From Mobula hypostoma (Eukaryota): a DNA stretch of 64,000 nucleotides. Both the position numbers and the translations under genes were made by a program. Positions 18,891-57,200 of this stretch are shown here, in pieces; within the stretch, counting starts at the first letter, position 1; each line of letters starts with the position of its first letter. The stretch is taken from NCBI RefSeq assembly GCF_963921235.1, contig NC_086108.1:53384001-53448000 (forward strand). Direction: 5' to 3'. The notes beneath the pieces are model-generated. The model was not told where the DNA came from and did not search any database. It saw only the letters and a program-made list of their open reading frames with translations.

Positions 18891-19625
18891 TGAGGAAATC
18901 TGCAGATCCTGGAATTTCAAGCAACACACATCAAAATTGCTGGTGAATGCAGCAGGCCAGGCAGCATCTCTAGGAAGCGGTACAGTCGATGTTTCGGGCT
19001 GAGAACCTTCGTCAGGACTAATTGAAAGAAGAGCTAGTACGAGATTTGAAAGGGAGAGGGGGAGGGGGAGGGGGAGATCTGAAATGATAGGAGAAGACAG
19101 GAGGGGGAGGGATGGAGCCAGGAGCCAGACAGTTGATTGGCAAAAGGGATATGAGAGGATCTTGGGACGGGAGGCCTAGGGAGAAAGAAAGGGGGAGGGG
19201 GGAAGCCCAGAGGATGGGCAAGGGGTATAGTGAGAGGGACAGAGGGAGAAAAAGGAGAGAGAGAAAAAGAATATATATATATACACACACAAAAAACGGA
19301 TGGGGTACGCGGGGGAGGTGGGGCATTAACGGAAGTTAGAGAAGTCAATGTTCATGCTATCAGGTTGGAGGCTACCATGATCCTGTCCCATGATCCTCTC
19401 ATACCCCTTTTGCCAATCAACTGTCCAGCTCTTGGCTCCATCCCTCCCCCTCCTGTCTTCTCCTATCATTTCGGATCTCCCCCTCCCCCTCTCACTTTCA
19501 AATCTCTTACTAGCTCTTCTTTCAGTTAGTCCTGATGAAGGGTCTGGGCCCAAAACGTCGACTGTACCTCTTCCTAGAGATGCTGCCTGGTCTGCTGCGT
19601 TCACCAGCAACTTTTATGTGTATTG
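18891..19625. mobile_element. Penelope-like element insertion: inverted pair of pseudo-LTRs, each with a degenerate hammerhead motif
   Basis: Minus copy ~18895-19376 includes the PLE ORF end GSLQPDSMNIDFSNFR; the plus copy ~19378-19625 is its reverse complement. Flanks catgatgcagcca (18878-18890) / catgattcaacca (19626-19638) look like a decayed TSD. Confidence 0.8.
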
Positions 19626-19689
19626 CATGATTCAACCAGTCAGGATACACTCCACCATGCATCTATAGAAGTTTGTCAAAGTTTTAGGT

Positions 19690-22040: not shown

Positions 22041-23607
22041 GTCATAGTCATAGTCATAGTCATAGTCATACTTTATTGATCCCGGGGGAAATTGGTTTTC
22101 GTTACAGTTGCATCATAAATAATTAAATAGTAATAAAACCATAAATAGTTAAATAGTAATATGTAAATTATGCCAGGAAATAAGTCCAGGACCAGCCTAT
22201 TGGCTCAGGGTGTCTGACCCTCCAAGGGAGGAGTTGTAAAGTTTGATGGCCACAGACAGGAATGACTTCCTATGATGCTCTGTGTTGCATCTCGGTGGAA
22301 TGAGTCTCTGGCTGAATGTACTCCTGTGCCCAACCAGTACATTATGTAGTGGATGGGAGACATTTTGTCCAAGATGGCATGCAACTTGGACAGCATCCTC
22401 TTTTCAGACACCGCCGTCAGAGAGTCCAGTTCCATCCCCACAACATCACTGGCCTTACGAATGAGTTTGTTGATTCTGTTGGTGTCTGCTACCCTCAGCC
22501 TGCTGCCCCAGCACACAACAGCAAACATGATCGCACTGGCCACCACAGACTCGTAGAACATCCTCAGCATCGTCCGGCAGATGTTAAAGGACCTTAGTCT
22601 CTCAGGAAATAGAGCCGGCTCTGACCCTTCTTGTAGACAGCCTCAATGTTCTTTGACCAGTCCAGTTTATTGTCAATTCGTGTCCCCAGGTATTTGTAAT
22701 CCTCCACCATGTCCACACTGACCCCCCGGATGGAAACAGGGGTCACCGGTACCTTAGCTCTCCTCAGGTCTACCACCAGCTCCTTAGTCTTTTTCACATT
22801 AAGCTGCAGATAATTCTGCTCACACCATGTGACAAAGTTTCCTACCGTAGCCCTGTACTCAGCCTCATCTCCCTTGCTGATGCATCCAACTATGGCAGAG
22901 TCATCCGAAAACTTCTGAAGATGACAAGACTCTGTGCAGTAGTTGAAGTCCGAGGTGTAAATGGTGAAGAGAAAGGGAGACAAGACAGTCCCCTGTGGAG
23001 CCCCAGTGCTGCTGATCACTCTGTTGGACACACAGTGTTGCAAGCACACGTACTGTGGTCTGCCAGTCAGGTAATGAAGAATCCATGACACCAGGGAAGT
23101 ATCCATCTGCATCGCTGTCAGCTTCTCCCCCAGCAGAGCAGGGCGGATGGTGTTGAACGCACTGGAGAAGTCAAAAAACATGACCCTCACAGTGCTTGCT
23201 GGCTTGTCCAGGTGGGCGTAGACACGGTTCAGCAGGTAGACGATGGCATCCTCAACTCCTAGTCGGGGCTGGTAGGTGAACTGGAGGGGATCTAAGTGTG
23301 GCCTGACCATAGGCCGGAGCAGCTCCAGAACAAGTCTCTCCAGGGTCTTCATGATGTGGGAGGTCAATGCCACCAGTCTGTAGTCATTGAGGCCGCTGGG
23401 GCGAGGCGTCTTCGGCACAGGGATGAGGCAGGACGTCTTCCATAGCACAGGAACCTTCCGGAGCCTCAGGCTCAGGTTGAAGACATGGCGACGTACTCCA
23501 CATAGCTGAGGGGCACAGGTTTTGAGCACCCTGGTACTGACACCATCCGGTCCTGCAGCCTTGCTTGGGTTGAGACATTTTAGCTGTCTTCTCACCTGTT
23601 CAGCTGT
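22041..23607 (-). mobile_element. 5'-truncated Rex1/Babar-like non-LTR retrotransposon, relatively young
   Basis: RT ORF 22594-23595 (KAAGPDG, YRLVALTS, FFDFSSAFNTI, GAPQGTVLSPFLF, KFSDD) continues after a frameshift in 22205-22570. (GTCATA)5 microsatellite tail at 22041-22070. Confidence 0.88.
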
Positions 23608-24289
23608 ACATACTGCACACTAACCATTCTGTAAATCCGTGATCATTTGCAGTTAACAAGCTTTCTCTACTCTGTCTTAACCAACATATCATGACTTATG
23701 TGGTTCAAAATTTCATGGTCTCCACTCCATCACAAACCTTTCTCTTTTCTGCAGAACAAAAATGGAAGCAGGAGAAGGTCATTCAGCTTTGTACCCACAC
23801 CATCATTAAGTAAGAATGTGGTTGATCTTTTTCCTCAGTATGATTAGTCTGCATTCAACTCCCATCCATTTTGATTTCTGCCTTAAATATACAGAGCAAC
23901 TGAGACTCTTATTTCCCCGTCGGGTTGAGAAGTCTAAGAGTTGTCTTATGAAGACATTTCTTTCCATCCTGTCCTTAATGGACACCACCTTATTTGTGAG
24001 GCTGTAATACCCCAGGCAGGGAAAGCATCAGCTTTGTATCTACTTTGTGTAGTATTATAAAGAATGTGTGTGTTTTAAAGAGATTGCCTCTCAAACTCTG
24101 CAGAGTATAGGCCCAATCTGCTTAATCATTCATAATGATAAACCCTTCATTCCAGGGGTGAGACTGGTAAACCCTCTTAGCACTCCCACAACTGTAGATA
24201 TATTCTGTAGGGAGACCTGACCTGACCTGAACACAATGTTACATTTCTGGTTTTGTCAGGGCCCTATGTGATTGGAGAAGTTTGCAAAG

Positions 24290-25090
<801 letters not shown>

Positions 25091-32204: not shown

Positions 32205-35200
32205 TATAGAACATAAAACATGGAATAGTACAGCACAGTACAGGCCCTTGGGCTCACAATGTTGTGCCAACCCTTAAATTCTGCCTCCCATATAACCCCC
32301 ACCTTAAATTCCTCCATATACCTGTCTAGTAGTCTCTTAAATTTCACTAGTGTATCTGCCTCCACCACTGACTCAGGCAGTGCATTCCACGCACCAACCA
32401 CTTTCTGAGTAAAAAACCTTCCTCTAATATACCCCTTGAACTTCCCACCCCTTACCTTAAAGCCGTGTCCTCTTATACTGAGCAGTGGTGCCCTGGGGAA
32501 GAGGCGCTGGCTGTCCACTCTATCTATTCTTCTTAATATCTTGTATACTTGTATATCATGTCTCCTCTCATCCTCCTTCTCTCCAAAGAGTAAAGCCCTA
32601 GCTTCCTTAATCTCTGATCATAATGCATACTCTCTAAACCAGGCAGCAACCCGGTAAATCTCCTCTGTACCCTTTCCAATGCTTCCACATCCTTCCTATA
32701 GTGAGGCGACCGGAACTGGACACAGTATTCCAAGTATGGCCTAACCAGAGTTTTATAGAGCTGCATCATTACATCGCGACTCTTAAACGCTATCCCTCGA
32801 CTTACGAAAACTAACATCCCATAAACTTTCTTAACCACCTTTCTATCCACCTGTGAGGCAACTTTCAGGGATCTGTGGACATGTATCCCCAGATCCCTCT
32901 GCTCCTCCACACTACCATGTATCCTGGCATTTACTTTGTACTCTGCCTTGGAGTTTGTCCTTCCAAAGTGTACCACCTCACACTTCTCTGAGTTGAACTT
33001 CATCTGCCACTTCTCAGCCCACTTCGGCATCCTATCAATGTCTCTCTGCGATCTTCGATAGTCCTCTACACTATCCACGACACCACCAACCTTTGTGTCA
33101 TCTGCAAACTTGCCAACCCATCCTTCTACCTTGACATCCAGGTCGTTAATAAAAATCACGAAAAGTAGAGGTCCCAGAACAGATCCTTGTAGGACACCAC
33201 TAGTCACAACCCTCCAATCCCAATGTACTCCCTCCACCAGGCAAGCCAATTCTGAATCCACCAAACTTCCCTGGATCCCATGCTTTCTGACTTTCTGAAT
33301 AAGCCTACTGTGTGGAACCTTGTCAAATGCCTTACAAAAATCCATGTAGATCACATCCACTGCATTACCCTCATCCATATGCCTGGTCACCTCCTCAAAG
33401 AACTCTATTAGGCTTGTTAGACACGATCTGCCCTTCACAAAGCCATGCTGACTGTCCCTGATCAGACCATAATTCTCTAAATGCTCATAGATACTATCTC
33501 TAAGAATCTTTTCCAACAGCTTTCCCACCACAGATGTAAGGCTCACTGGTCTATAATTACCCGGACTATCTCTACTACCTTTTTTGAACAAGGGGACAAC
33601 ATTCGCCTCCCTCCAATCCTCCGGTGCCATTCCTACGGACAATGAGGACATAAAGATCCTAGCCAGAGGTTCAGCAATCTCTTCCCTTGCCTCGTGGAGC
33701 AGCCTGGGGAATATTCCGTCAGGCCCCGGGGACTTACATAGTCATTGTCATATTTTATTGATCCCGAGGGAAATTGGTTTTCGTTACAGTTGCACCTTAA
33801 GTAATTAAATAGTGATAAAACTATAAATAATTAAATAGTAATATGTAAATTATGCCAGGAAATAAGTCCAGGACCAGCCTATTGGCTCAGGGTGTCTGAC
33901 CCTCCAAGGGAGGAGTTGTAAAGTTTGATGGCCACAGGCAGGAATGACTTCCTATGACGCTCTGTGTTGCATCTCAGTGGAATGAGTCTCTGGCTGAATG
34001 TACTCCTGTGCCCAACCAGTCCATTATGTAGTGGATGGGAGACATTGTCCAAGATGTATTTTACCTGTCCTAATGTATTTTAACAACTCCAACACCTCCT
34101 CTCCCTTAGTAGCAACATGCTCCAGAACATCAACCTCACTCATATTGTCCTCACCGTCATCAAGTTCCCTCTCATAGGTGAATACCGAAGAGAAGTATTC
34201 ATTGAGGACCTCACTGACTTCCACAGCCTCCGGGCACATCTTCCCACCTTTATCTCTAATCAGTCCTACCTTCACTCCTGTCATCCTTTTGTTCTTCACA
34301 TAATTGAAGAATGCCTTGGGGTTTTCCTTTACCCTCCTCGCCAAGGCCTTCTCTTACCTCCTTCTTGCTTTCCTCAGCCCCTTAAGCTCCTTTCTTGCTA
34401 CCCTATATTCCTCAATAGACCCATCTGATCCTTGCTTCCTAAACCTCATGTATGCTGCCTTCTTCCACCTGACTAGAATTTCCACCTCACTTGTCACCTA
34501 TGGTTCCTTCACCCTACCATTCTTTATCTTCCTCACTGGGACAAATTTATCCCTGACATTCTGCAAGAGAGCCCTAAACATCGACCACATGTCCATAGTA
34601 TATTTCCCTGCAAAAACATCATCCCAATTCACACCTACAAGTTCTAGCCTTGTAGCCTCCTAATTTGCCCTTCCCCAATTAAAAATTTTTCTGTCCTCTC
34701 TGATTCTATCCTTTTCCATGATAAGGTTAAAGGCCAGGGAACAGTGGTCACTGTCCCCCAGATGCTCACCCACTGAGAGATCTGTGACCTGACCCAGATT
34801 CGTTACCTAATACTAGATCTAGTATGGCATTCCCCCTAGTCGGCCTGTCAACATACTGTGACAGGAATTCATTCTGGACACACTTAACAAACTCTTGCCC
34901 CGTCTAAACTATTGGAACTAATCAGGTGCCAATCAATATTAGGGAAGTTAAAGTCACCCATGATAACAACCCTGTTATTTTTGCACCTTTCCAAAATCTG
35001 CCTCCCAATCTGCTCCTCGGTATCTCTGCTGCTACCAGGGGGCCTACAGAATATCCCCAATAGAGTAACTGCGCCCTTCCTGTTCCTGACTTCTACCCAT
35101 ATTGACTCAAAGAATGTAGGATCCTGCTACATTACCCACCCTTTCTGTAGCTGTAATAGTATCCCTGACCAGTAATGCCACCACTCCTCCCCTTTCCCCC

Positions 35201-40705: not shown

Positions 40706-41882
40706 AAATTTAGCAACTACACTGTAGCAGTTACTTGAAAACAAACCAAAACCACTGAGAGACTCAGTGTGGGAGTTGACACCGTATGATGCGCGTCCAA
40801 ATAACTAAATTCCAAGTCAGGAAAGTTATGCTCAATCCTTTATTATGAAACCTGCAAGGATGAACGATCCTATAGTGATTTTAAAAAAACTAACAGAACT
40901 AAATTTGAGATATAGCAAAAGTAACAAAATAAGTGTTCCAATTAGTGTAACTAAGTGAAGATCATACAATAGTGTAATTAACATTCAACAAAAAAAATCA
41001 CCCTCAACTCTCTACCTCTCAACTAGATTGACTAACCAAGACAAAGCGTGAATATGTAACTTTACTCATTTGCTTCTACCACACCCCAACCCTCATGACA
41101 CATTACCCATAATTACAAATGACCTACACAAATTACAATACAGATAGAAAATAGATACATGGCTCCTACTTCCCGAATTATTTAACTCTAGTAATTACAG
41201 CTACATACTATTAAAAATAGGAGACATAAAATCTTCAAGGATAAACACCTTAACATTAATTGAGATGTTCTCTTTCTTCTTCAAGTCATCAATAATAAGT
41301 ACAATGTATCCGGGAAGGAAATTGCACTTTATACCTGACCATTTCTGAAGTTCCTGTAACTGTGGTAGGTACTCCTTGACCCACCATTTCCAGAACAAGT
41401 TTGACATGTATTGGACTTGCTTCCATCAATGAAGATGTCTTTGTTTTGGAACTCTCCTGGTGGTAAGGATGGTGCGGTTTTTAGAAGCAACAGATGGTTG
41501 GGTGTTAGTGCTTGCAAATCATTGAGATCAGAGGATGTTTCAGTAATTGGATGACCATTGATAATAGCCCCTAACTGCTGCTACTAAGTTAACAAATTTC
41601 GTGTCACATGCTGGTGATAATAAACCTGATTCTGATTCATAAAGGACTGTGTGGAAATTGTCTTGGTCAAGTTTCTGTACCTTCATGGTGGAATTGAGGA
41701 CCTTTCACACGGATCTAATCAATCTCTCCCATGTTCCTTCATGATGCTTGACATGCCCCCATCCCTCTTCACTGTACTGCTTCTGCACGGCACATCAAAA
41801 CTTCTAAAGTAGTCCACTCCTACATGTGTAGACAGTTCCATCTGGAAATCTTTCTTTGGCAAAACCCAATAACCTCCATTTC

Positions 41883-42016
41883 TGTCCTGTCCTGACGAAG
41901 GGTCTCGGCCTGAAACGTCGACTGCGCCTCTTCCTAGAGATGCTGCTTGGCCTGCTGCGTTCACCAGCAACTTTGTATGTTGCTTGAATTTCCAGCATCT
42001 GCAGAATTCCTGTTGT
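41883..42016 (+). mobile_element. Short Penelope-type repeat insertion with intact hammerhead core
   Basis: 13-bp TSD taacctccatttc (41870-41882 and 42017-42029); same family as 19526-19625. Confidence 0.85.
41889..41922 (+). ncRNA. Minimal type I hammerhead ribozyme motif (Penelope-associated)
   Basis: gtc-CTGACGA-agg gtctcgg cct-GAAA-cGTC-gac: stem I gtc/gac, conserved core, short stem II, palindromic ACGT stem III. Predicted cleavage after C41919. Activity is not shown. Confidence 0.7.
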
Positions 42017-45000
42017 TAACCTCCATTTCAGCTTTTTTGAACTCTTCCACCGCAAGTCAGCCTTGGTTGGTCTGATCTTTGGCCTTTTCAATCTCTCTCT
42101 CCAAAGAATGCCCTTGTTGTTCTTCATACAAGTCAAACTGAGCAAGAGTGAGGTTTAGTTGTTTTCTCTTCAGACTAAGAAACAAGAGCAGGTTCTTAAC
42201 TCTAAGAATCCAGGACACTGTCTTCCTCAAATGGAACCAGGACGAAAAGTGATGGATTATACGTGTTACTGCATCCATCTTCTTTTCAATCTTCATGGCA
42301 TTCATTGCAACACTTCTGTTGACATCCAGATCATCTAGCAGGAGTTCTGCAGAACAATCGGGATTCACAGGCCATTCACTTTCAGGCTGAAGAAGATACT
42401 GAGTCCCTGACACCCAATGTCCTACTCTTCAGGAACGCTTTCACCGTCAACCCTCTAGAGGTCACATCTGATGGGTTGCTTGAAGTATTTACATACTTCC
42501 ATTGAGATGCCTATGAACCTTAAGAAGTTCTGAAACTCCGTTTGCAACAAAGGTTCAGAATATGGATGTTTAATTCTTGATATACTTCAGCACAGAAGTA
42601 CTATCAGTCCAAAAAACTGAGTCATGAAGCTGTATGTGCAACTCCTTCCTGCACAATGTGTTCATAGGCCTTGCCATTGTAACCAGCAGTAAGCTCCATA
42701 CGAGGGATGGAAACTGACTTCAATGGAGCCACCCTAGATTTTCCCATTATAAAAGCACTGTGCACCTGAGAGCATGAGTTATGCAACAGTAGGTAGGTCA
42801 CTGCTCCATAGCCATCTGTAAAGTGGTTTTACTGTGCAGCAGCAACTTCTCCAAAATCCAAGGGCTTCAAACATCTAACAGCTTTGAAGTCTTCCAACTG
42901 GTAGAGTTCTTTCAGCCAGCTTGTCCACTCATAAGCAAGTGATGTTGATATAATGTCATCCTAGCCTAACCCTTTCTTGCATCTATTTTGTAGAATCTTC
43001 TTAGTAGATAGCACCATTGGACACAAGATTTATTAAGATCATTGATGGAACCAACTGTAGAGGGGATCTGGTGAGTGGTCTAGCTGGGACCGTGATCCTA
43101 AACTTGAAAGTATCAGACTCAATGCACCATTGCACACCCAGTACTCTCACCATAGAAGATGTACCTTGACCCAAATCCAAATCTTTCATGTCTTTCGTCC
43201 TTTGCTCTTCTGGTATCACTATGTCTGTTGATTATCCACTTTGTGAATTAAAAGCCGCCTTTAGCACAAATGGATACAAGGTCATGAGAGAGAGGGAGAT
43301 ACACCTCTTCTTTTGCAGAGGACACTGACACGAGGCAGTCATCAACATAGAGGCAATGCAAAACCTTATCCACCACCTCGCAGTTGAATATTCCTTCGTT
43401 GTCCTCTGTGCATTTCCTAGGGGCAAAGGTGGCGCAGCTCAGTGATGAAATTGCTTCAAAGAAATGTACCACTATTCTAAAATCCACCATATCGTGGCTA
43501 AGGTCAACATTAGGCCACCACAGAAACCTCAGCAGATCTGCATCTTCCACTGGTACTTAACCTGATGAAACATTGTTTCAATATCTGCCATTATCACCAG
43601 TGGTTCTTTTCTGAATCTGGTTAAGACTCCTATCAGTGAGCTGGTAAGAACCAGTCTGAACTGAGCATTAAGAGGTAGTCCCTGAAAAATCGCTCCACAA
43701 TCAAACACAACACAAAGTTTCTTTTTTCCAGGGTGATAAACACCATGATGTGGAATATACTAGACTTTCCCATTACTACGTTCCAGATCCTCTGCTGGCA
43801 CTCTTTCAACATAACCGTTGGAGATAATATCCTTCTTGAAAGCTGTTTAGTCAGTGTAAAATGACAAAGCCTTCATTAGATATAGAGTATGCTGTTCTTC
43901 AATTTTCCTGATATTTGGCATGTTTACGTGCTTTTTTCTTAAAAGTAAACTAATCTGGTAGTGACCATTGACCAATTTTGCAGAATTCGTAACTAACTCC
44001 AAAAACTTGTGGTCTTCTCTTGACAAACCAGGTTGTTCATCTTGATTGAATTCAGCGAACTCTGTCTTGAATTGCCACTGCCAAAGTTCATGTAAGTTAA
44101 CTGTCAGCTCAGGCTGTACACAGTCTCTCCTATCACCATTGTTTCCTTTTAGTTGTCCATGACTCTTACTGCATAAGCTCCATTATTAATGCTGTGAATT
44201 ACTTGCAACAGGACCAGTGCTTCAGACATATTCATCCCTATCAGCAACTCAATTTCTGAATCAATTTCTGGCAAATGGACGTTTCCCTGGAGATCCCCCT
44301 TATCATGGAATGTTCCCTTTGCGGACGGGCATACTTTTCTGTGTATAGATGTTGGATAATTCACAATAGTTTTTACCATCTAAGTCAGCGACTTCCACTT
44401 AAACAATGTAGCTGTCATGACCTCCTCTTGATTCGTGGTGCATGAGAGAATGTGTGTCCTTTTTCCTTTGAGTTTGAGCTTGAGCTTGTTCCTAAGGCCC
44501 ACTATACAGAGCATTGCTGTACTCCCTTGATTTAGGAAAGCATCTGTAACCACTTTCTTGTTACCCTTAGACTTCATTTGTACTGGAATTATGGGAAGTT
44601 TACAATGATCGTAAGATCATTAGATACCAGGGTCTCGGTGTGATTCTTTCACGGCTTGTTTAGATTCTGCACCCTTTCATAAGAGTGAATATAAAGTATG
44701 CTGGGATGCTTGCCACTGCATACCTTACATGAAAGGCATTTCCTGCAATCCTTGCTGATGTGTTCTGTACACACACAGCTAAAGCAGACACCATTTCCCT
44801 CTAGAAAGGCAATCTTCTCACTATGAGCCATTTTCTGCAGCTGAGGGAACGTGTGTCCACCCTCACAGAACAGACAAACACTTTGGCTGACAAGGCCATG
44901 TCCCTTCCATTAGCTCCTGGTTCAGTTTTAGCTTTACTTCTCACAGCAGCCACGTTTTGGCAAAGCTGCTTCCTTTATAGCTTTAGAACAAAGCTGTGAG

Positions 45001-48000
45001 TTTTGTTCACATCTTTGCTCATTGCCAGTGATGTAGCTAGCATCCTGTATATTCCCAAACACCAGGTCTGTAGCAATCTTTATTTGCCTTTCAATAAAAT
45101 CAACAATGTCAGTGAAAGTAGTCTTATGGATATGCCTTTCTTACAGTTCACAGACCACTGTTCTCCATTCATCCCTAGGCATACAGGGCAATTTCTGTAC
45201 GGCAGTTGACATATTCAGCTCACGTATGTGCTGCACTTCTTCCATGGCATTGCAACAGCCACTCAGAGATCGTAGTCTTGAAGAGCTTTCGTGTATTCAG
45301 ATTCGTTAGGTACCCTAAAAAGAACCTTTTGCATGTAGATGGAGGCAGTTTTCTGTTCCTTACCAAAATGTTCCTGTAAAGCCAAAGCCTTTACATATGT
45401 TTTCTTCCGGTCAACATGCTGGCAACTTCTGACAAGTTCACTAGGGCGACCCCTAGTGTACTGTTCAAGGAAACAGTAAATCACTATAGCTATCAGTCTT
45501 GCCTTCAACACTGTTTTCAAAAGCCTTTATGAATGCATGATACTGCAGTGATCACCATCAAAGATTTGTATCTCTCTTTTAAGCAAAGATGAAATGTATT
45601 GTTGTTGTGCCAATAAGATTGTAATTTCACTTTGCTTCCCCATAATGTCAGTAATATTATTTTGATCCCTCTTGTCTGAAACAAGAGTGTTTCCATGCTG
45701 TAAGCCCTTCAAGCTGTGAGATATGATATAGGTTCAGAGTCCCTCATAAGTGCAGGCTGAGAGTAAACACCCTGAACTACCTCACGAGTGTCTTGTTCAT
45801 GCATCCCAAACATTTGAGGAACAAATAAATCAACACTGAGATTGGAGTGTTTTTTGCTTTTCTCTCTGCCTTTCCAATATAGGAACTCATACCATAGGAC
45901 TGCCCTGCTGGAGCACTTTTAACACTTGCTATACTTGAAGCCCCCAGTCTACAACTTTGGTCATCTGTGCAACTATTTCTTCCTGCAACTTAGTCTGATC
46001 CTTCCTTTTCCATACATGTTCCTCTTGCTTTCTAGCACATGTTTGTCCTTCAATAATCGTTGACGTGAGATCAATGTAGCTAAATCAGCCTTTATTTTAA
46101 TGCGTGCAGAGGAGGTATTAGACATAGAAGATGTTCTTCCTGCAGCAGAATTTCAAGCACTGACATTTGACACATTGTCTTGTGGGACTACATTATCCTG
46201 TGGGTCCTCTGATATATGCGTAGTCAAAACATGCCTTGGAACGTACAAAACATCATATAATGGAAGGTGAGACACATATTCTCTTGTTGCAACAACATGA
46301 CCTTCATTGTAATATGTTTGGGTCAACCATTGTTTCATATCCTCAGTGAATACATAACTAAGGCTATCAATGTTTGAAAAACATCTATTTTGTTTTCTCT
46401 GTTTATCCTTGGGAAGTAATGAGATTTGTATGTGATATTGCTTATCAACAGCTTCATAGAGATTAGTTAAGTCCTCAAGATAAGATTGCACTTTGTAAGA
46501 CATTTTCCTTATTTTCCATAAGGTCCTTAATTGATGGTATTATACTTTTAGTTTTGTTAACATTTCTTTTATACTTATTTTGAAGACTTTCGATTCTACC
46601 CACTGAAGCTTTCAAAGTTAAATTTCTCTTTTGATCCCGAATTCAAGGTCGCTGATGTCAGTTCCATACTTCAATTCACTTGTGTTACTTTCTCCTTTTT
46701 GTGCCACTTACAATTAACTCCTTGTTTGCCTGCAATAAGTTCGCATAATGCATTGGCGATATTCCATTCGGTAAATGTAGGCAACGAACAAACTGTCCGT
46801 GCAGCCACAAGTGCTTAAACCAGACAAAGCAAACAATGTTTAGTTCAAACATCAGTAAGAGGAAGAATATTTCAGCATTTCAGTGAAACGAAGCAACGGA
46901 CCCTCAAGCAAACACCACACAATTGAGCAACGGTCCCCAATGGATGGGCAGCGCTGACCACTCAAATTGTGTTCAAACCACAAATACACAGCATGAGTCA
47001 ACAAAAGGTCGTGGACAATCCCACCACAAACTGCTGTTTCAATTTCACCAACAGTTCCGAGGAAGTCCTTTGCTGTAAACTCGTGTTTGTTTGGTATAAC
47101 TATATTTTTGTTGATGAAGTGTAGCGGTTCCTTGAAATTAAATCAAAACCGCTGAGAGACTATAGGAGTTGACACTGTATGATGCGCTTCTAAGTAAATA
47201 AATTCCAATTCTTAAAAAAAAGTTTGATCCTTTATTACAAAGCCAGCAAAGATGAATGATCTTATAGTGATTTTTAAAAAAAGTAACAAAACTAAATTAG
47301 TGATATACTGAAATTAACAGAATAAGCGTTCCAGTTAGTGTAACTAAGTGAAGATCATAAAATAGCATAATTAGGGTCAACAAAAAAAAAATCATCCCCC
47401 AACTCACTGCCCCTCAACTAGACTGACTGACTAACCAAGACAAAGCGTGACTATGTAATTATACTCACACCCGACCCGCGTGACAAATTACCCATAATGA
47501 TGTGTGCAACACAAATTACAATATAGACAGACAGAAAATACACTTCCTACACACCTTCGATATCGTCATCCAAGTCACCTATATAACAAATGTAGAAAAT
47601 TCAGCACAGCAGCGTTTGCTTTAGCAGAGCGCTCATTACATGTTGCCAACCCACAAAAGATCCATTTATGCCACTTTCCTTTTACTGTTCTATAAACCTT
47701 ATATGCATGCCAATGTGTTAGATGTACATAATGAGCTTATATTTTTCATAATAACCTTAATGCAGCACCTTATCATAGGCCTTTTGGAAATCTGAGTGCA
47801 GTACATTGGTGTTTTTTTTCTTTTATCCACAGCACATATTAGTTACTTCTCCACAGAACTCCAATAAATTTATCAAACAAAATATTTTTATGAAAAGTAA
47901 ATCTTGTTTTACCTGATTATTTCACATTTTAAGTGTCCTTAAGAACTTGAAGGGAGAATATCTAATTCTTCCGAACTTGAGCACAGACCTAGTTAAGTTA

Positions 48001-48149
48001 TTCTTTCCCCATGAAGAGAAGAGAATGTAGGATCTGTAAAATGGAGGGTAGGAAAATGTGACCTGCAGATCAGCCTGGCATGTTTTCTACTTCCAAGGGG
48101 TATATTAATAAATTGTTTTGTTGTCACATGTACTGAGATACAGTGGAAA

Positions 48150-48380
48150 AACTACAGAGACAAATACAGTGAAGAAGTATAGTCGAGATAGCTGTGAGAG
48201 TTGGTATGTTTATGAAACGTATTGGTAGACAGTTTTTTCCCAGAGATTGAGTCAGAGAGATTGAAACAGGGTAGAGAGGTGTCAAAAATGGATGTAGTAA
48301 ATTTAGAGGCAGGGTGAAAGCTGGAGGCAAAGTTGATTAAATTGACAAGCTCAGCATGGATGCAAGAAGCAGTGCCAATT
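48150..48380 (-). mobile_element. Penelope-like RT fragment
   Basis: ELVNLINFASSFHPASKFTTSI...SLPCFNLS...LSTNTFHKHTNSHSYLDYTSS resembles the PLE RT C-terminal region (FH..L.FT, LPFLD, KPT....YL.Y.S). Confidence 0.7.
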
Positions 48381-49171
48381 TGGTTGTTGATGCAGCACTG
48401 AACGGGTTGGAGTGTTACCAGTGAAAGCTTGGAACATGGACTCTGGAATTTTGTATGTGTTACCCTAGATTTCCAGCATCTAAAGAATATCTTGTGTTTA
48501 TGATTTCCTGTCTGATCCTTGCTTTCTAACCCCGAAGTAAGCTTCTTTCTTTCACTTGACAAGATGTTCCACATCTCTTGTCAGCCATGGTTCATTCACC
48601 CTACTATCTTTTCCCTGCCTCAGTTGGACAAACCTATCCAGAACCCTGTGCAAATGTTCCTTAAAGCTCCCCATTTGTGTTGTGCAGTTTCCTGAGTACA
48701 TCCATTCCCAATTTAAGCATTATTTATGCCTAATAGTATAATAATTCTCCCTTCTCCAATTAAATACTTTCTCATACTGTCTGCTTCTAACCCACTCCAA
48801 TGCAATGTAAAGGTCAGGAAGCTGTAACACACACAAAATGCTGGAGGAACTCATTAAGGTTGGGCAACATCTTTGGACAGTTTTGAAGAAGAAGGGTCTC
48901 GGCCCAAAATGTTGATGGTATATTCCTCTCCCTGTGTGTACTCTGGATTTCCAGCATTTGCAGAATCTCTTGTGTTTATGGCCAGTTCTGGTATTGAGAA
49001 AGTATGGAAACAGAAACAATATTAACACTTCAGGTCAAGGGAACTTCAGAAGAATTGGGGAAAGGGAGAAAAGAAACAAAGTTCTAGAGAGAATGGGAGA
49101 AGAGATGGATAAGTTACTGATAAAGGGCAGTTGATTAGAAGAATGCTAGCAAGAGAGGACATATTGAAATA

Positions 49172-49365
49172 ATTAGTCCTGACGAAGGGTCTCGGCCTGA
49201 AACGTCGATTGCACCTCTTCCTACAGAAGTTAGTCCTGACGAAGGGTCTTGGCCTGAAACGTCGATTGCACCTCTTCCTACAGATGCTGCTTGGCCTGCT
49301 GTGTTCACCAGCAACTTTGATGTATGTTGCTTGAATTTCCAGCATCTGCAGAATTCCTGTTGTTT
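49172..49365 (+). mobile_element. Penelope-type repeat insertion with a tandemly duplicated hammerhead
   Basis: 13-bp TSD acatattgaaata (49159-49171 and 49366-49378); internal 57-bp tandem duplication starting at 49173 and 49230. Confidence 0.88.
49175..49267 (+). ncRNA. Tandem pair of minimal type I hammerhead ribozyme motifs
   Basis: agtc-CTGACGA-agggtct(c/t)ggcct-GAAA-cGTC-gatt occurs twice, with cores at 49179 and 49236 and predicted cleavage after 49206 and 49263. Confidence 0.7.
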
Positions 49366-50669
49366 ACATATTGAAATATATGTTTTCATTGAAGTTGAAA
49401 AATAACAACTTCATTTACCAATAAGTGGGCTTGTGGAAATGACTTTAGAGTTCTGCTTAAGTTTCTTAATATAAATGAAAGCAAGACAGAAATCAAGGTA
49501 ATCTTTTATGATAATTAATAAGTCTAATAGCTCTTGTTTTTCTAGTCCTCTTATATTGGATTTAAAGCTCACTACATCAATAATTTTAAATTACATTTTG
49601 ATGCAATAAAATCAGAGTCATTGTCTTGTACAAATTTCATTGGCTTCTTGAACTCAGTTATTTTATTTTACTAAAGAATAGTGTCCTATTCAACTTTAAA
49701 TAATTGTTTAGCTGGATGCAAGCAATTTAAGTGTCACAACAGTAAAGTAACCTTGCTCCTTCCGATGTTCCACAAACAAGAGAAAATCTGCAGATGCTGG
49801 AAATCAAAGTAATACACACAAAATGCTGGAGGAACTCAGCAGGCCAGGCAGCATCTGTGGAAAAGATTAAACAGTTGACCGAGACACCTTCATCAGTATT
49901 ACTTCTTCTGATGTTCCTTGTCATTAGAAGTACCATTTTAGGCCTGACATACATTTTGGTTATATTATTGGAGGCTTACTGGCTGGAATTCTCAAAACCA
50001 TAAAAGCAACTTTGAACAGTGAATTTGTATTTTTCCATCTGGAAAAAAAATCTGAATTATAGATGGAACAGATTTAGCAACTAAATTCAATATTTAATGT
50101 AATTATTCTGAAAGGCTAATTAAAAAGGTGTTCAAATCGAACACACACAACTTCTATGTAGGTGAAACTGATCAAAAATTACTAGTTTAATTTAATTGTT
50201 CCACCTTTTTTCCCCCTTTAAAGTTGGGAAGGACCCATGCATGCCATTTAAAGATCATGGTACTTCTTAAGGGGTATTAGAATTCTGATATTTCATAGTC
50301 AATTACCTGCATGGAATTAGGCCAATCAGTTTTTTTATTGTTCGCCATCAAGAGTAATTTATCACCCTGATGGAAATGGGTTCCAAATGTAAGAGTTATG
50401 GATGATGGATAACTATGTGTGAGTTATTAAGGAAACAAATGTCTTTTCTCTCACAGGGCACACCTGCGAATGAGACTGTGACCTCCTGTCAGATATTCAC
50501 CTAGATAAGAAAAAAGTAGAAACAACCCCTCCTTTTTCTTCAGATCAACAATATGCAGAAACTGTTCAAAATATGCTCATTTAGAATTTGATAGCAGATC
50601 CGCTTTTTTTAATAAACCAACATCCATGAATTTCTATTTTTCATGGATTGTACCTTGTCTATGTGGCAT

Positions 50670-54859: not shown

Positions 54860-57200
<2,341 letters not shown>

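What the first reader, a model, noticed from the sequence alone, without database searches (positions are those of the whole stretch)
49172..49365. Tandem double hammerhead ribozyme in sense orientation inside the PGM1 1A-1B intron
Seen: a TSD-bounded insertion with a 57-bp duplication; each unit has CTGACGA, a short stem II, GAAA, cGTC and stem I agtc/gatt. Known: Penelope-like elements carry minimal type I hammerheads whose loopless palindromic stem III (ACGU) makes them cleave mainly as dimers. Inference: the tandem arrangement could supply the dimer partner in cis. It would then cut PGM1 exon-1A pre-mRNA (not 1B transcripts) and might excise a 57-nt RNA.
Basis: partly seen in the sequence, partly recalled or inferred. 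Interest (0 to 1): 0.75.

Follow-up and report, generated by a model that had tools for sequence, protein, structure and literature searches.

The report
Stuttered Penelope hammerhead in PGM1 intron
Two copies of a tiny self-cutting RNA motif sit head to tail in an intron of the PGM1 gene of what is likely a shark or ray, left by a jumping-gene insertion that a close relative lacks; they are predicted to fold shut and so likely do not cut the gene's message, which makes this an ordinary by-product of a very common repeat.

Summary
In detail: a 194-bp insertion (49172-49365) with a 13-bp target duplication carries two 57-nt units, each with a complete minimal hammerhead core, sense to PGM1 between exons 1A and 1B. 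It is the 3' end of a Neptune-type Penelope-like element whose hammerhead has 47,929 exact matches in this genome. A relative about 2% diverged has the empty site. Similar short tandems occur at 52 loci, nearly all with different junctions; 29 of 30 examined sit at the insertion's 5' junction, so they likely arise by re-copying during integration. The cis dimer is topologically possible but predicted 14-24 kcal/mol above a shut fold (no active control folded). Published minimal dimers cleave weakly; 1 of 9 frog dimers cleaved. PGM1 holds three more sense cores. Cleavage of 1A pre-mRNA is unlikely and untested. Reads neither confirm nor refute the inner junction. The scan noted such tandems before on other DNA. 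Verdict: new member of a known kind, low interest.

The parts
49159..49171 (+). 5' copy of the 13-bp target-site duplication
   Evidence: single copy in organism B's empty site (X5 record 21)
49172..49365 (+). 5'-truncated 3' end (pseudo-LTR) of a Neptune-type Penelope-like element, with an internal re-copied stretch
   Evidence: 94% identical to positions -18..+129 of the pLTR of ORF-bearing copies, numbering from C3 of the hammerhead
49173..49227 (+). unit 1: element positions -6..+48 with the first hammerhead
49174..49211 (+). minimal type I hammerhead 1: stem I 5' strand 49174-49178, CUGACGA 49179-49185, extra A 49186, stem II 49187-49198, GAAA 49199-49202, CGUC 49203-49206, stem I 3' strand 49207-49211; predicted cut after 49206 if active
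   Evidence: sequence; activity untested
49228..49365 (+). unit 2 and tail: element positions -8..+129, ending at the family's usual 3' end
49231..49268 (+). minimal type I hammerhead 2 (core at 49236; predicted cut after 49263 if active); one CpG-type change in loop II at 49250
49366..49378 (+). 3' copy of the 13-bp target-site duplication
24692..24940 (+). host context: coding part of PGM1 first exon 1A
56079..56336 (+). host context: coding part of PGM1 alternative first exon 1B (start approximate)
41889..42020 (+). another young sense copy of the same element in the same intron, single hammerhead with intact core and family-type stem I

Best explanation
This is a species-limited insertion of the last 194 bases of a Penelope-like retrotransposon whose hammerhead motif is present twice, likely because the reverse transcriptase re-copied it during integration, and the pair is predicted to fold shut and likely has no effect on PGM1. 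Steps: (shown) the element family is Neptune-type, with RT and GIY-YIG ORF upstream of the hammerhead-bearing pseudo-LTR; (shown) it inserted with a 13-bp target duplication at a site that is empty in a close relative; (inferred) reverse transcription began at the usual +129 site, stopped at -8 near the hammerhead's 5' edge, where many copies end, jumped back to +48 and copied to -6 again; (predicted) in exon-1A pre-mRNA the GACG of each core pairs with the CGUC of the other unit, giving an inactive rod; (inferred) any residual cleavage is too slow to beat splicing to exon 2, 33.6 kb downstream, and the insertion drifts neutrally.
For: Parent ORF with YIDD and YIGET motifs upstream of the same pLTR in L019, L024, L026 (Pfam GIY-YIG E 7.5e-4, below the curated cut-off). 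47,929 exact core matches, one per 72.5 kb. Empty site in organism B, flanks 17 differences in 890 bases. 62 tandem junctions at 52 loci, the window's junction in 1 of 62 rows. Of 30 tandem loci examined, 24 abut an inverted 5' arm, 5 are at a plain 5' end and 1 is internal, against 15 of 26 unselected loci with an internal hammerhead (Fisher p 9e-6). 10 of 26 unselected loci end between -30 and +1. Unit 2 holds element bases (-8, -7) of which unit 1 lacks the G. Active double fold 23.3 and single site 14.2 kcal/mol above the ensemble at 37 C, worse at 25 C; all 27 natural pairs at 21 loci were also unfavourable. Literature: low cleavage of dimeric and trimeric minimal hammerheads (PMC4209133), protein needed (PMC11167929), 1 of 9 frog dimers cleaved (10.64898/2026.07.22.740005), slow intronic ribozymes do not block splicing (as reported in PMC2995048 and PMC10919898).
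Against: No known active ribozyme was folded as a control, and nearest-neighbour energies ignore the core's tertiary contacts and penalise junctions, so the size of the gap is uncertain. This locus is one of the few tandems (5 of 30) without a masking inverted arm. Family copies that start exactly at the predicted cut site (+28) are 3-5 times more frequent than at neighbouring positions (326 against 42, 64, 89 and 146 raw counts), so the family's hammerhead may cut in cells, though about half of these are explained by microhomology (54 of the first 100 rows). A later slippage duplication followed by one G-to-A change at 49172 would give the same sequence.
Confidence: 0.76

Rival explanations
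1. One reading: the two units form a cis double hammerhead, perhaps helped by the element's protein or other chaperones, that cuts exon-1A pre-mRNA fast enough to lower the 1A isoform while sparing 1B transcripts.
For: Both cores are intact and the double fold is nested and possible; no adjacent inverted arm; axolotl dimers cleave much better than monomers (PMC7229834); the anole PLE hammerhead cuts when its protein is present (PMC11167929); excess of family copies starting at +28; fast intronic ribozymes can block splicing.
Against: Predicted shut fold; weakened stems I and II; 8 of 9 tested frog dimers showed no cleavage; absent from a 2%-diverged relative, so no sign of retention by selection; three more sense cores in PGM1, two in introns shared by both isoforms.
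Confidence: 0.07
2. Same inert element, but the duplication arose after insertion by replication slippage or repair in the genomic copy.
For: Both units share a stem I change seen in about 1% of family reads (place 49266), which fits mutation followed by duplication; one further G-to-A change at 49172 would make the junction a perfect genomic duplication.
Against: Needs one more mutation; 29 of 30 family tandems lie at the 5' junction of the insertion although most copies have the hammerhead internally; re-copying one RNA also explains the shared change.
Confidence: 0.11
3. The duplication is an assembly artefact and the real allele has a single hammerhead.
For: No listed contig of runs X1 or X3 crossed the inner junction.
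Against: The units differ by a CpG-type change and the junction is unique in the genome; 51 other loci show the same kind of structure; the tool warns that a hole proves nothing, and short low-depth paths between very deep repeat nodes are expected to be dropped from such contigs (my own knowledge of assemblers).
Confidence: 0.03
4. A newborn retrozyme: double cleavage releases the 57-nt unit, which is circularised and can be copied elsewhere.
For: Meets the tandem part of the working definition in the 2026 preprint, where family lengths go down to 51 bp; some family loci have 3-6 units.
Against: Needs both cuts, the least favourable fold; the unit lacks the +95 and +129 sites where family copies begin reverse transcription (by analogy with PMC11167929); its junction occurs once in the genome; reported retrozyme circles are about 170-400 nt.
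Confidence: 0.03

Closest known systems
Minimal hammerheads (min-HHR) in pseudo-LTRs of metazoan Penelope-like elements (PMC4209133; reviewed in PMC6765202)
   Same: Core boxes, extra base between 9 and 10.1, palindromic loopless stem III, 4-5-pair stem I, position in the pLTR, thousands of dispersed truncated copies, dimer model for tandems.
   Different: Position 11.1 is U (G-U in place of the conserved G-C; 84 of the first 100 listed family copies share it); stem II only 3-4 pairs; two copies only 57 nt apart.
Neptune-clade endonuclease-positive Penelope-like elements (features as in PMC8557442)
   Same: C-terminal GIY-YIG with two cysteines inside it, a CX4CxxC linker motif, 5' truncation, inverted 5' arms, two 3' ends about 35 nt apart, target duplications of 8-15 bp.
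   Different: This copy has only the last 194 bases, no inverted arm, and a re-copied hammerhead. Clade was assigned by motif, not by a tree.
Non-LTR retrozymes of animals (PMC7229834; bioRxiv 10.64898/2026.07.22.740005)
   Same: Head-to-tail units each with a type I hammerhead; derived from a PLE pLTR; intronic location is common (42-44% in Xenopus).
   Different: Minimal, not canonical, hammerhead; 57-nt unit; a one-off junction, not a dispersed family; no RNA evidence.
Functional intronic self-cleaving ribozymes such as CPEB3 (PMC10919898)
   Same: Sense-strand ribozyme motif in a long intron ahead of the next exon.
   Different: CPEB3 is conserved and has a measured 2-3 min half-life; this insertion is absent from a close relative and is predicted to be shut.

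Membership tests
min-HHR of PLE pLTRs | Core CUGANGA, GAAA and UH with stem II between | tested here: met
   both units
min-HHR of PLE pLTRs | [quoted passage not shown] | tested here: met
   A at 49186/49243; ACGU at 49202-49205 and 49259-49262; feature list from PMC4209133
min-HHR of PLE pLTRs | Conserved G10.1-C11.1 pair | tested here: not met
   G-U in both units; a subfamily trait (84 of the first 100 rows), not damage to this copy
min-HHR of PLE pLTRs | Helix I of 4-5 pairs | tested here: met
   5 pairs, two G-U; the family has one G-U
min-HHR of PLE pLTRs | Lies in the pLTR of an element with RT and GIY-YIG ORF | tested here: met
   Pfam GIY-YIG 20.2 bits against a cut-off of 22.6; RT motif read by eye
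min-HHR of PLE pLTRs | Self-cleavage as a dimer | not testable with these tools
   folding predicts a shut state; family-level 5'-end excess at +28 is suggestive only
Neptune-clade PLE | CX2-5CxxC linker motif and cysteines inside GIY-YIG | tested here: met
   both seen in the parent ORF; definition from PMC8557442
Neptune-clade PLE | Groups with Neptune (not Nematis) in an RT tree | not tested
   no tree was built
Neptune-clade PLE | Target duplication, 5' truncation, inverted 5' arms, tail | tested here: met
   target duplications of 8-15 bp in 20 of the 22 tandem loci whose 3' end was located; inverted arms in 24 of 30
Non-LTR retrozyme | At least two consecutive tandem units with complete hammerheads | tested here: met
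   the preprint's folding-energy filter was not applied
Non-LTR retrozyme | Canonical type I hammerhead in units of about 150-450 bp | tested here: not met
   minimal motif, 57-nt unit against PMC7229834; the preprint allows down to 51 bp
Non-LTR retrozyme | Spreads as a unit (dispersed family) | tested here: not met
   the junction occurs in 1 of 62 rows
Non-LTR retrozyme | Expressed as linear and circular monomers | not testable with these tools
   only assembled contigs were on hand
Domesticated intronic ribozyme (CPEB3-like role) | Conserved at the orthologous site in relatives | tested here: not met
   empty site in organism B; one relative only

The most novel reading that the evidence does not exclude
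The Neptune reverse transcriptase of this genome stalls at the hammerhead's 5' edge and re-copies it, seeding dozens of independent cis-dimer ribozymes; the PGM1 copy, one of the few without a masking inverted arm, is switched on by protein, cuts exon-1A pre-mRNA and shifts the 1A/1B isoform ratio in this species relative to its insertion-free relative: a ribozyme switch caught at birth.
Probability: 0.06. Interest if true: 0.65.

Novelty: new member of a known kind. Interest (0 to 1): 0.2.

Why it matters
As it most likely stands it matters little: one of about 48,000 hammerhead-bearing Penelope ends and one of at least 52 short tandems. The useful by-product is genome-wide: tandem hammerheads here appear to be made at the 5' junction during integration, which offers a route to retrozyme birth other than later unequal crossover, and filled versus empty alleles in two close species make a ready natural control. 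If the pair did cut 1A pre-mRNA it would be a rare case of a newly inserted ribozyme tuning isoform choice.

Tried and rejected
Rfam scan of 48000-50500: no hammerhead family among 3 weak hits; not evidence against a minimal motif. Sequencing runs: no RNA holder listed; two guessed-RNA runs laid and two (X9 in both) are contigs and cannot show ends, strand or cleavage; X9 had one low-depth intronic contig at 48554-48851 and no unique cover around the insertion, which I do not use. Inner junction not bridged in X1 or X3: uninformative. A GATT-bearing source subfamily: only 16 exact matches, so none was shown. A fixed restart site (spliced 3' acceptor at -6) as the cause of the duplications: restart points range from about -3 to -33, so rejected as the general cause. 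An orientation-bias test in introns was planned on 400 kb downstream but only PGM1 was mapped (5 sense cores, 0 antisense intact cores), too few to test and with no control family. The bacterial promoter/terminator scan is irrelevant to this genome. The primary paper on dimeric cleavage of PLE hammerheads (Lunse et al., PMC5785218) is not held; I saw only its title and a review's summary. Searches for a paper on this family in sharks or rays found none: 'Penelope'+'hammerhead'+'elasmobranch' 0 papers, 'hammerhead'+'shark'+'retrotransposon' 15 papers, none on it by title or abstract start; most subscription journals and Repbase are not searched, and the preprint's supplementary tables, which cover one chondrichthyan, were not seen and may list this family.

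Full report
Observation. The sequence is as described. A 13-bp direct repeat (49159-49171, 49366-49378) brackets a 194-bp insert. Within it a 57-nt unit is present twice (49173-49284, 98% matches), the two copies differing at 49193/49250. Each copy has CUGACGA, an extra A, a 3-4-pair stem II, GAAA, CGUC and a 5-pair stem I with two G-U pairs; the would-be cut sites follow 49206 and 49263. The motif has 5 matches in the window and none in 100 shuffles. Two alternative first exons of PGM1 flank it on the same strand: 1A matches the main human isoform and 1B the second isoform, and a shark PGM1 (P0003) maps the remaining exons from 18.8 kb beyond the window. The closest PGM1 relatives are sharks, so the host is likely a cartilaginous fish.

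What it is. The insert is the 3' end of a Penelope-like element. Longer copies run upstream into an ORF with an RT YIDD motif, a CX4CxxC linker and a GIY-YIG domain (Pfam E 7.5e-4, below the cut-off), the layout given for Neptune and Nematis elements in PMC8557442 (passages); I built no tree. The 35-nt hammerhead pattern has 47,929 exact matches, one per 72.5 kb. A contig of organism B runs from 49158 straight to 49366 (X5 record 21): the empty site, with flanks differing at 17 of 890 bases. Contigs of the own species cross both outer junctions at flank depth. The insertion is therefore young and not shared with the one relative tested.

How the tandem arose. A strict pattern finds 62 short tandem junctions at 52 loci, and the window's junction in 1 of the 62; some of these have only a partial first unit. 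I examined 30 loci (7 and 23 from the first 30 rows after dropping 7 repeats of the same loci): 24 have the tandem directly against an inverted 5' arm, 5 (the window's among them) at a plain 5' end, 1 inside a long copy. In 26 unselected loci (30 rows, 4 being the second arm of one locus) the hammerhead is internal in 15, and 10 copies end between -30 and +1, at the hammerhead's 5' edge; Fisher p 9e-6 for 15 of 26 against 1 of 30. The simplest reading is inferred: reverse transcription often stops at this edge, and now and then jumps back 45-75 nt and copies again. In the window unit 2 begins at -8 and unit 1 at -6. A later genomic slippage plus one more mutation remains possible.

Would it cut? 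The cis double hammerhead is nested and thus possible. ViennaRNA puts it 23.3 kcal/mol, and a single active site 14.2 kcal/mol, above the ensemble at 37 C (27.0 and 15.9 at 25 C). The favoured fold is a rod in which each core's GACG pairs with the other unit's CGUC (probability 0.98-0.99; stem III about 1e-8), and it forms before the second GAAA is made. All 27 natural pairs at 21 loci were also unfavourable; a family-type tandem without inverted arm (L031) scored 20.1 against 23.9 here. The caveat is real: I folded no known active ribozyme, and these energies omit tertiary contacts. The literature points the same way. PMC4209133 (parts 1-2 of 4 read) found no cleavage of a single minimal motif and low cleavage of dimers and trimers. 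PMC11167929 (parts 1-2 of 4) found that a lizard PLE hammerhead cuts only with its protein, that uncleaved RNA is the main template, and no reads ending at the cut site. The preprint 10.64898/2026.07.22.740005 (parts 1-3 of 5) defines such tandems as non-LTR retrozymes, finds 42-44% of frog copies in introns, and saw cleavage in 1 of 9 dimers. PMC7229834 (passages) shows that canonical axolotl dimers do cleave well. PMC2995048 and PMC10919898 (passages) report that slow intronic ribozymes leave splicing intact and fast ones do not; exon 2 is 33.6 kb away, about 8-10 minutes at the mammalian rate quoted there. PMC6765202 (passages) already states that tandem layout may let neighbouring PLE hammerheads dimerise, so the idea itself is in print.

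Host context. PGM1 carries five sense cores with intact catalytic letters: 41892, 49179, 49236 and two beyond the window in introns shared by both isoforms. Sense copies are thus tolerated in this gene, and several potential partners share one pre-mRNA. Whether 1B transcripts start downstream of the insertion was not tested.

Evidence against my reading. Copies whose sense part starts exactly at the predicted cut site (+28) number 326, against 146 (+25), 42 (+27), 64 (+29) and 89 (+31); after correcting for pattern capture 1159 against 519, 224, 341 and 316. In 30 such loci most are inversion junctions, many with 3-5 nt of microhomology, but a few are not, and one has two units both starting at +28. 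By my count 54 of the first 100 rows fall in microhomology classes, leaving about a twofold excess. This hints that the family's hammerhead cuts a small share (about 2%) of templates in cells, likely with protein; it says nothing direct about this copy. The inner junction was not bridged in contigs.

Earlier notes. The scan recorded similar tandems in this genome and in other shark or ray genomes; nothing lay near this locus. These are unchecked and are not counted as support.

Verdict. Real, correctly described, and a new member of a known kind: a young Penelope end with a re-copied minimal hammerhead, likely inert. It works like a min-HHR tandem on paper and meets only the loosest retrozyme criterion. 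Interest 0.2; the bold case (an isoform-selective ribozyme caught at birth) has probability about 0.06.

Noticed in passing
genome-wide; L113-L142: 5' ends of this Penelope family pile up at the hammerhead's 5' edge: 10 of 26 unselected loci end between -30 and +1.
   Followed up: partly
genome-wide; L143-L172: Copies starting exactly at the predicted cut site are 3-5 times more common than at neighbouring positions, about half by microhomology; L151/L152 has two units both starting there.
   Followed up: partly
L019 reverse strand, just upstream of the hammerhead: The pLTR reads like a 3' splice site (branch-like motif, pyrimidine tract, CAG) ending at the start of helix I, as reported for Drosophila virilis Penelope in PMC4209133.
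   Followed up: no
L039 (G000:C5:27282267-27282561), G000:C91:20265617-20265807, L002: Arrays of 4 or more hammerhead units of 53-67 nt; candidates for young retrozyme-like satellites.
   Followed up: partly
window 49774-49865 (-): An older antisense family copy, 81% identical to the insertion's 3' part and 400 nt downstream, could pair with it in the pre-mRNA; it does not cover the hammerhead.
   Followed up: no
window 49216-49226 and 49273-49283 (+): Each unit has a pyrimidine run followed by CAG, a possible cryptic splice acceptor, common to all sense copies of the family.
   Followed up: no
window 18893-19630: Head-to-head inverted pair of the same element upstream of exon 1A, the typical Penelope insertion shape.
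   Followed up: no
window 22597-23619, 32536-33741 and about 41300-44900 (-): Open frames that look like LINE reverse transcriptases and decayed LTR-retrotransposon pieces; these labels are recalled, not tested.
   Followed up: no
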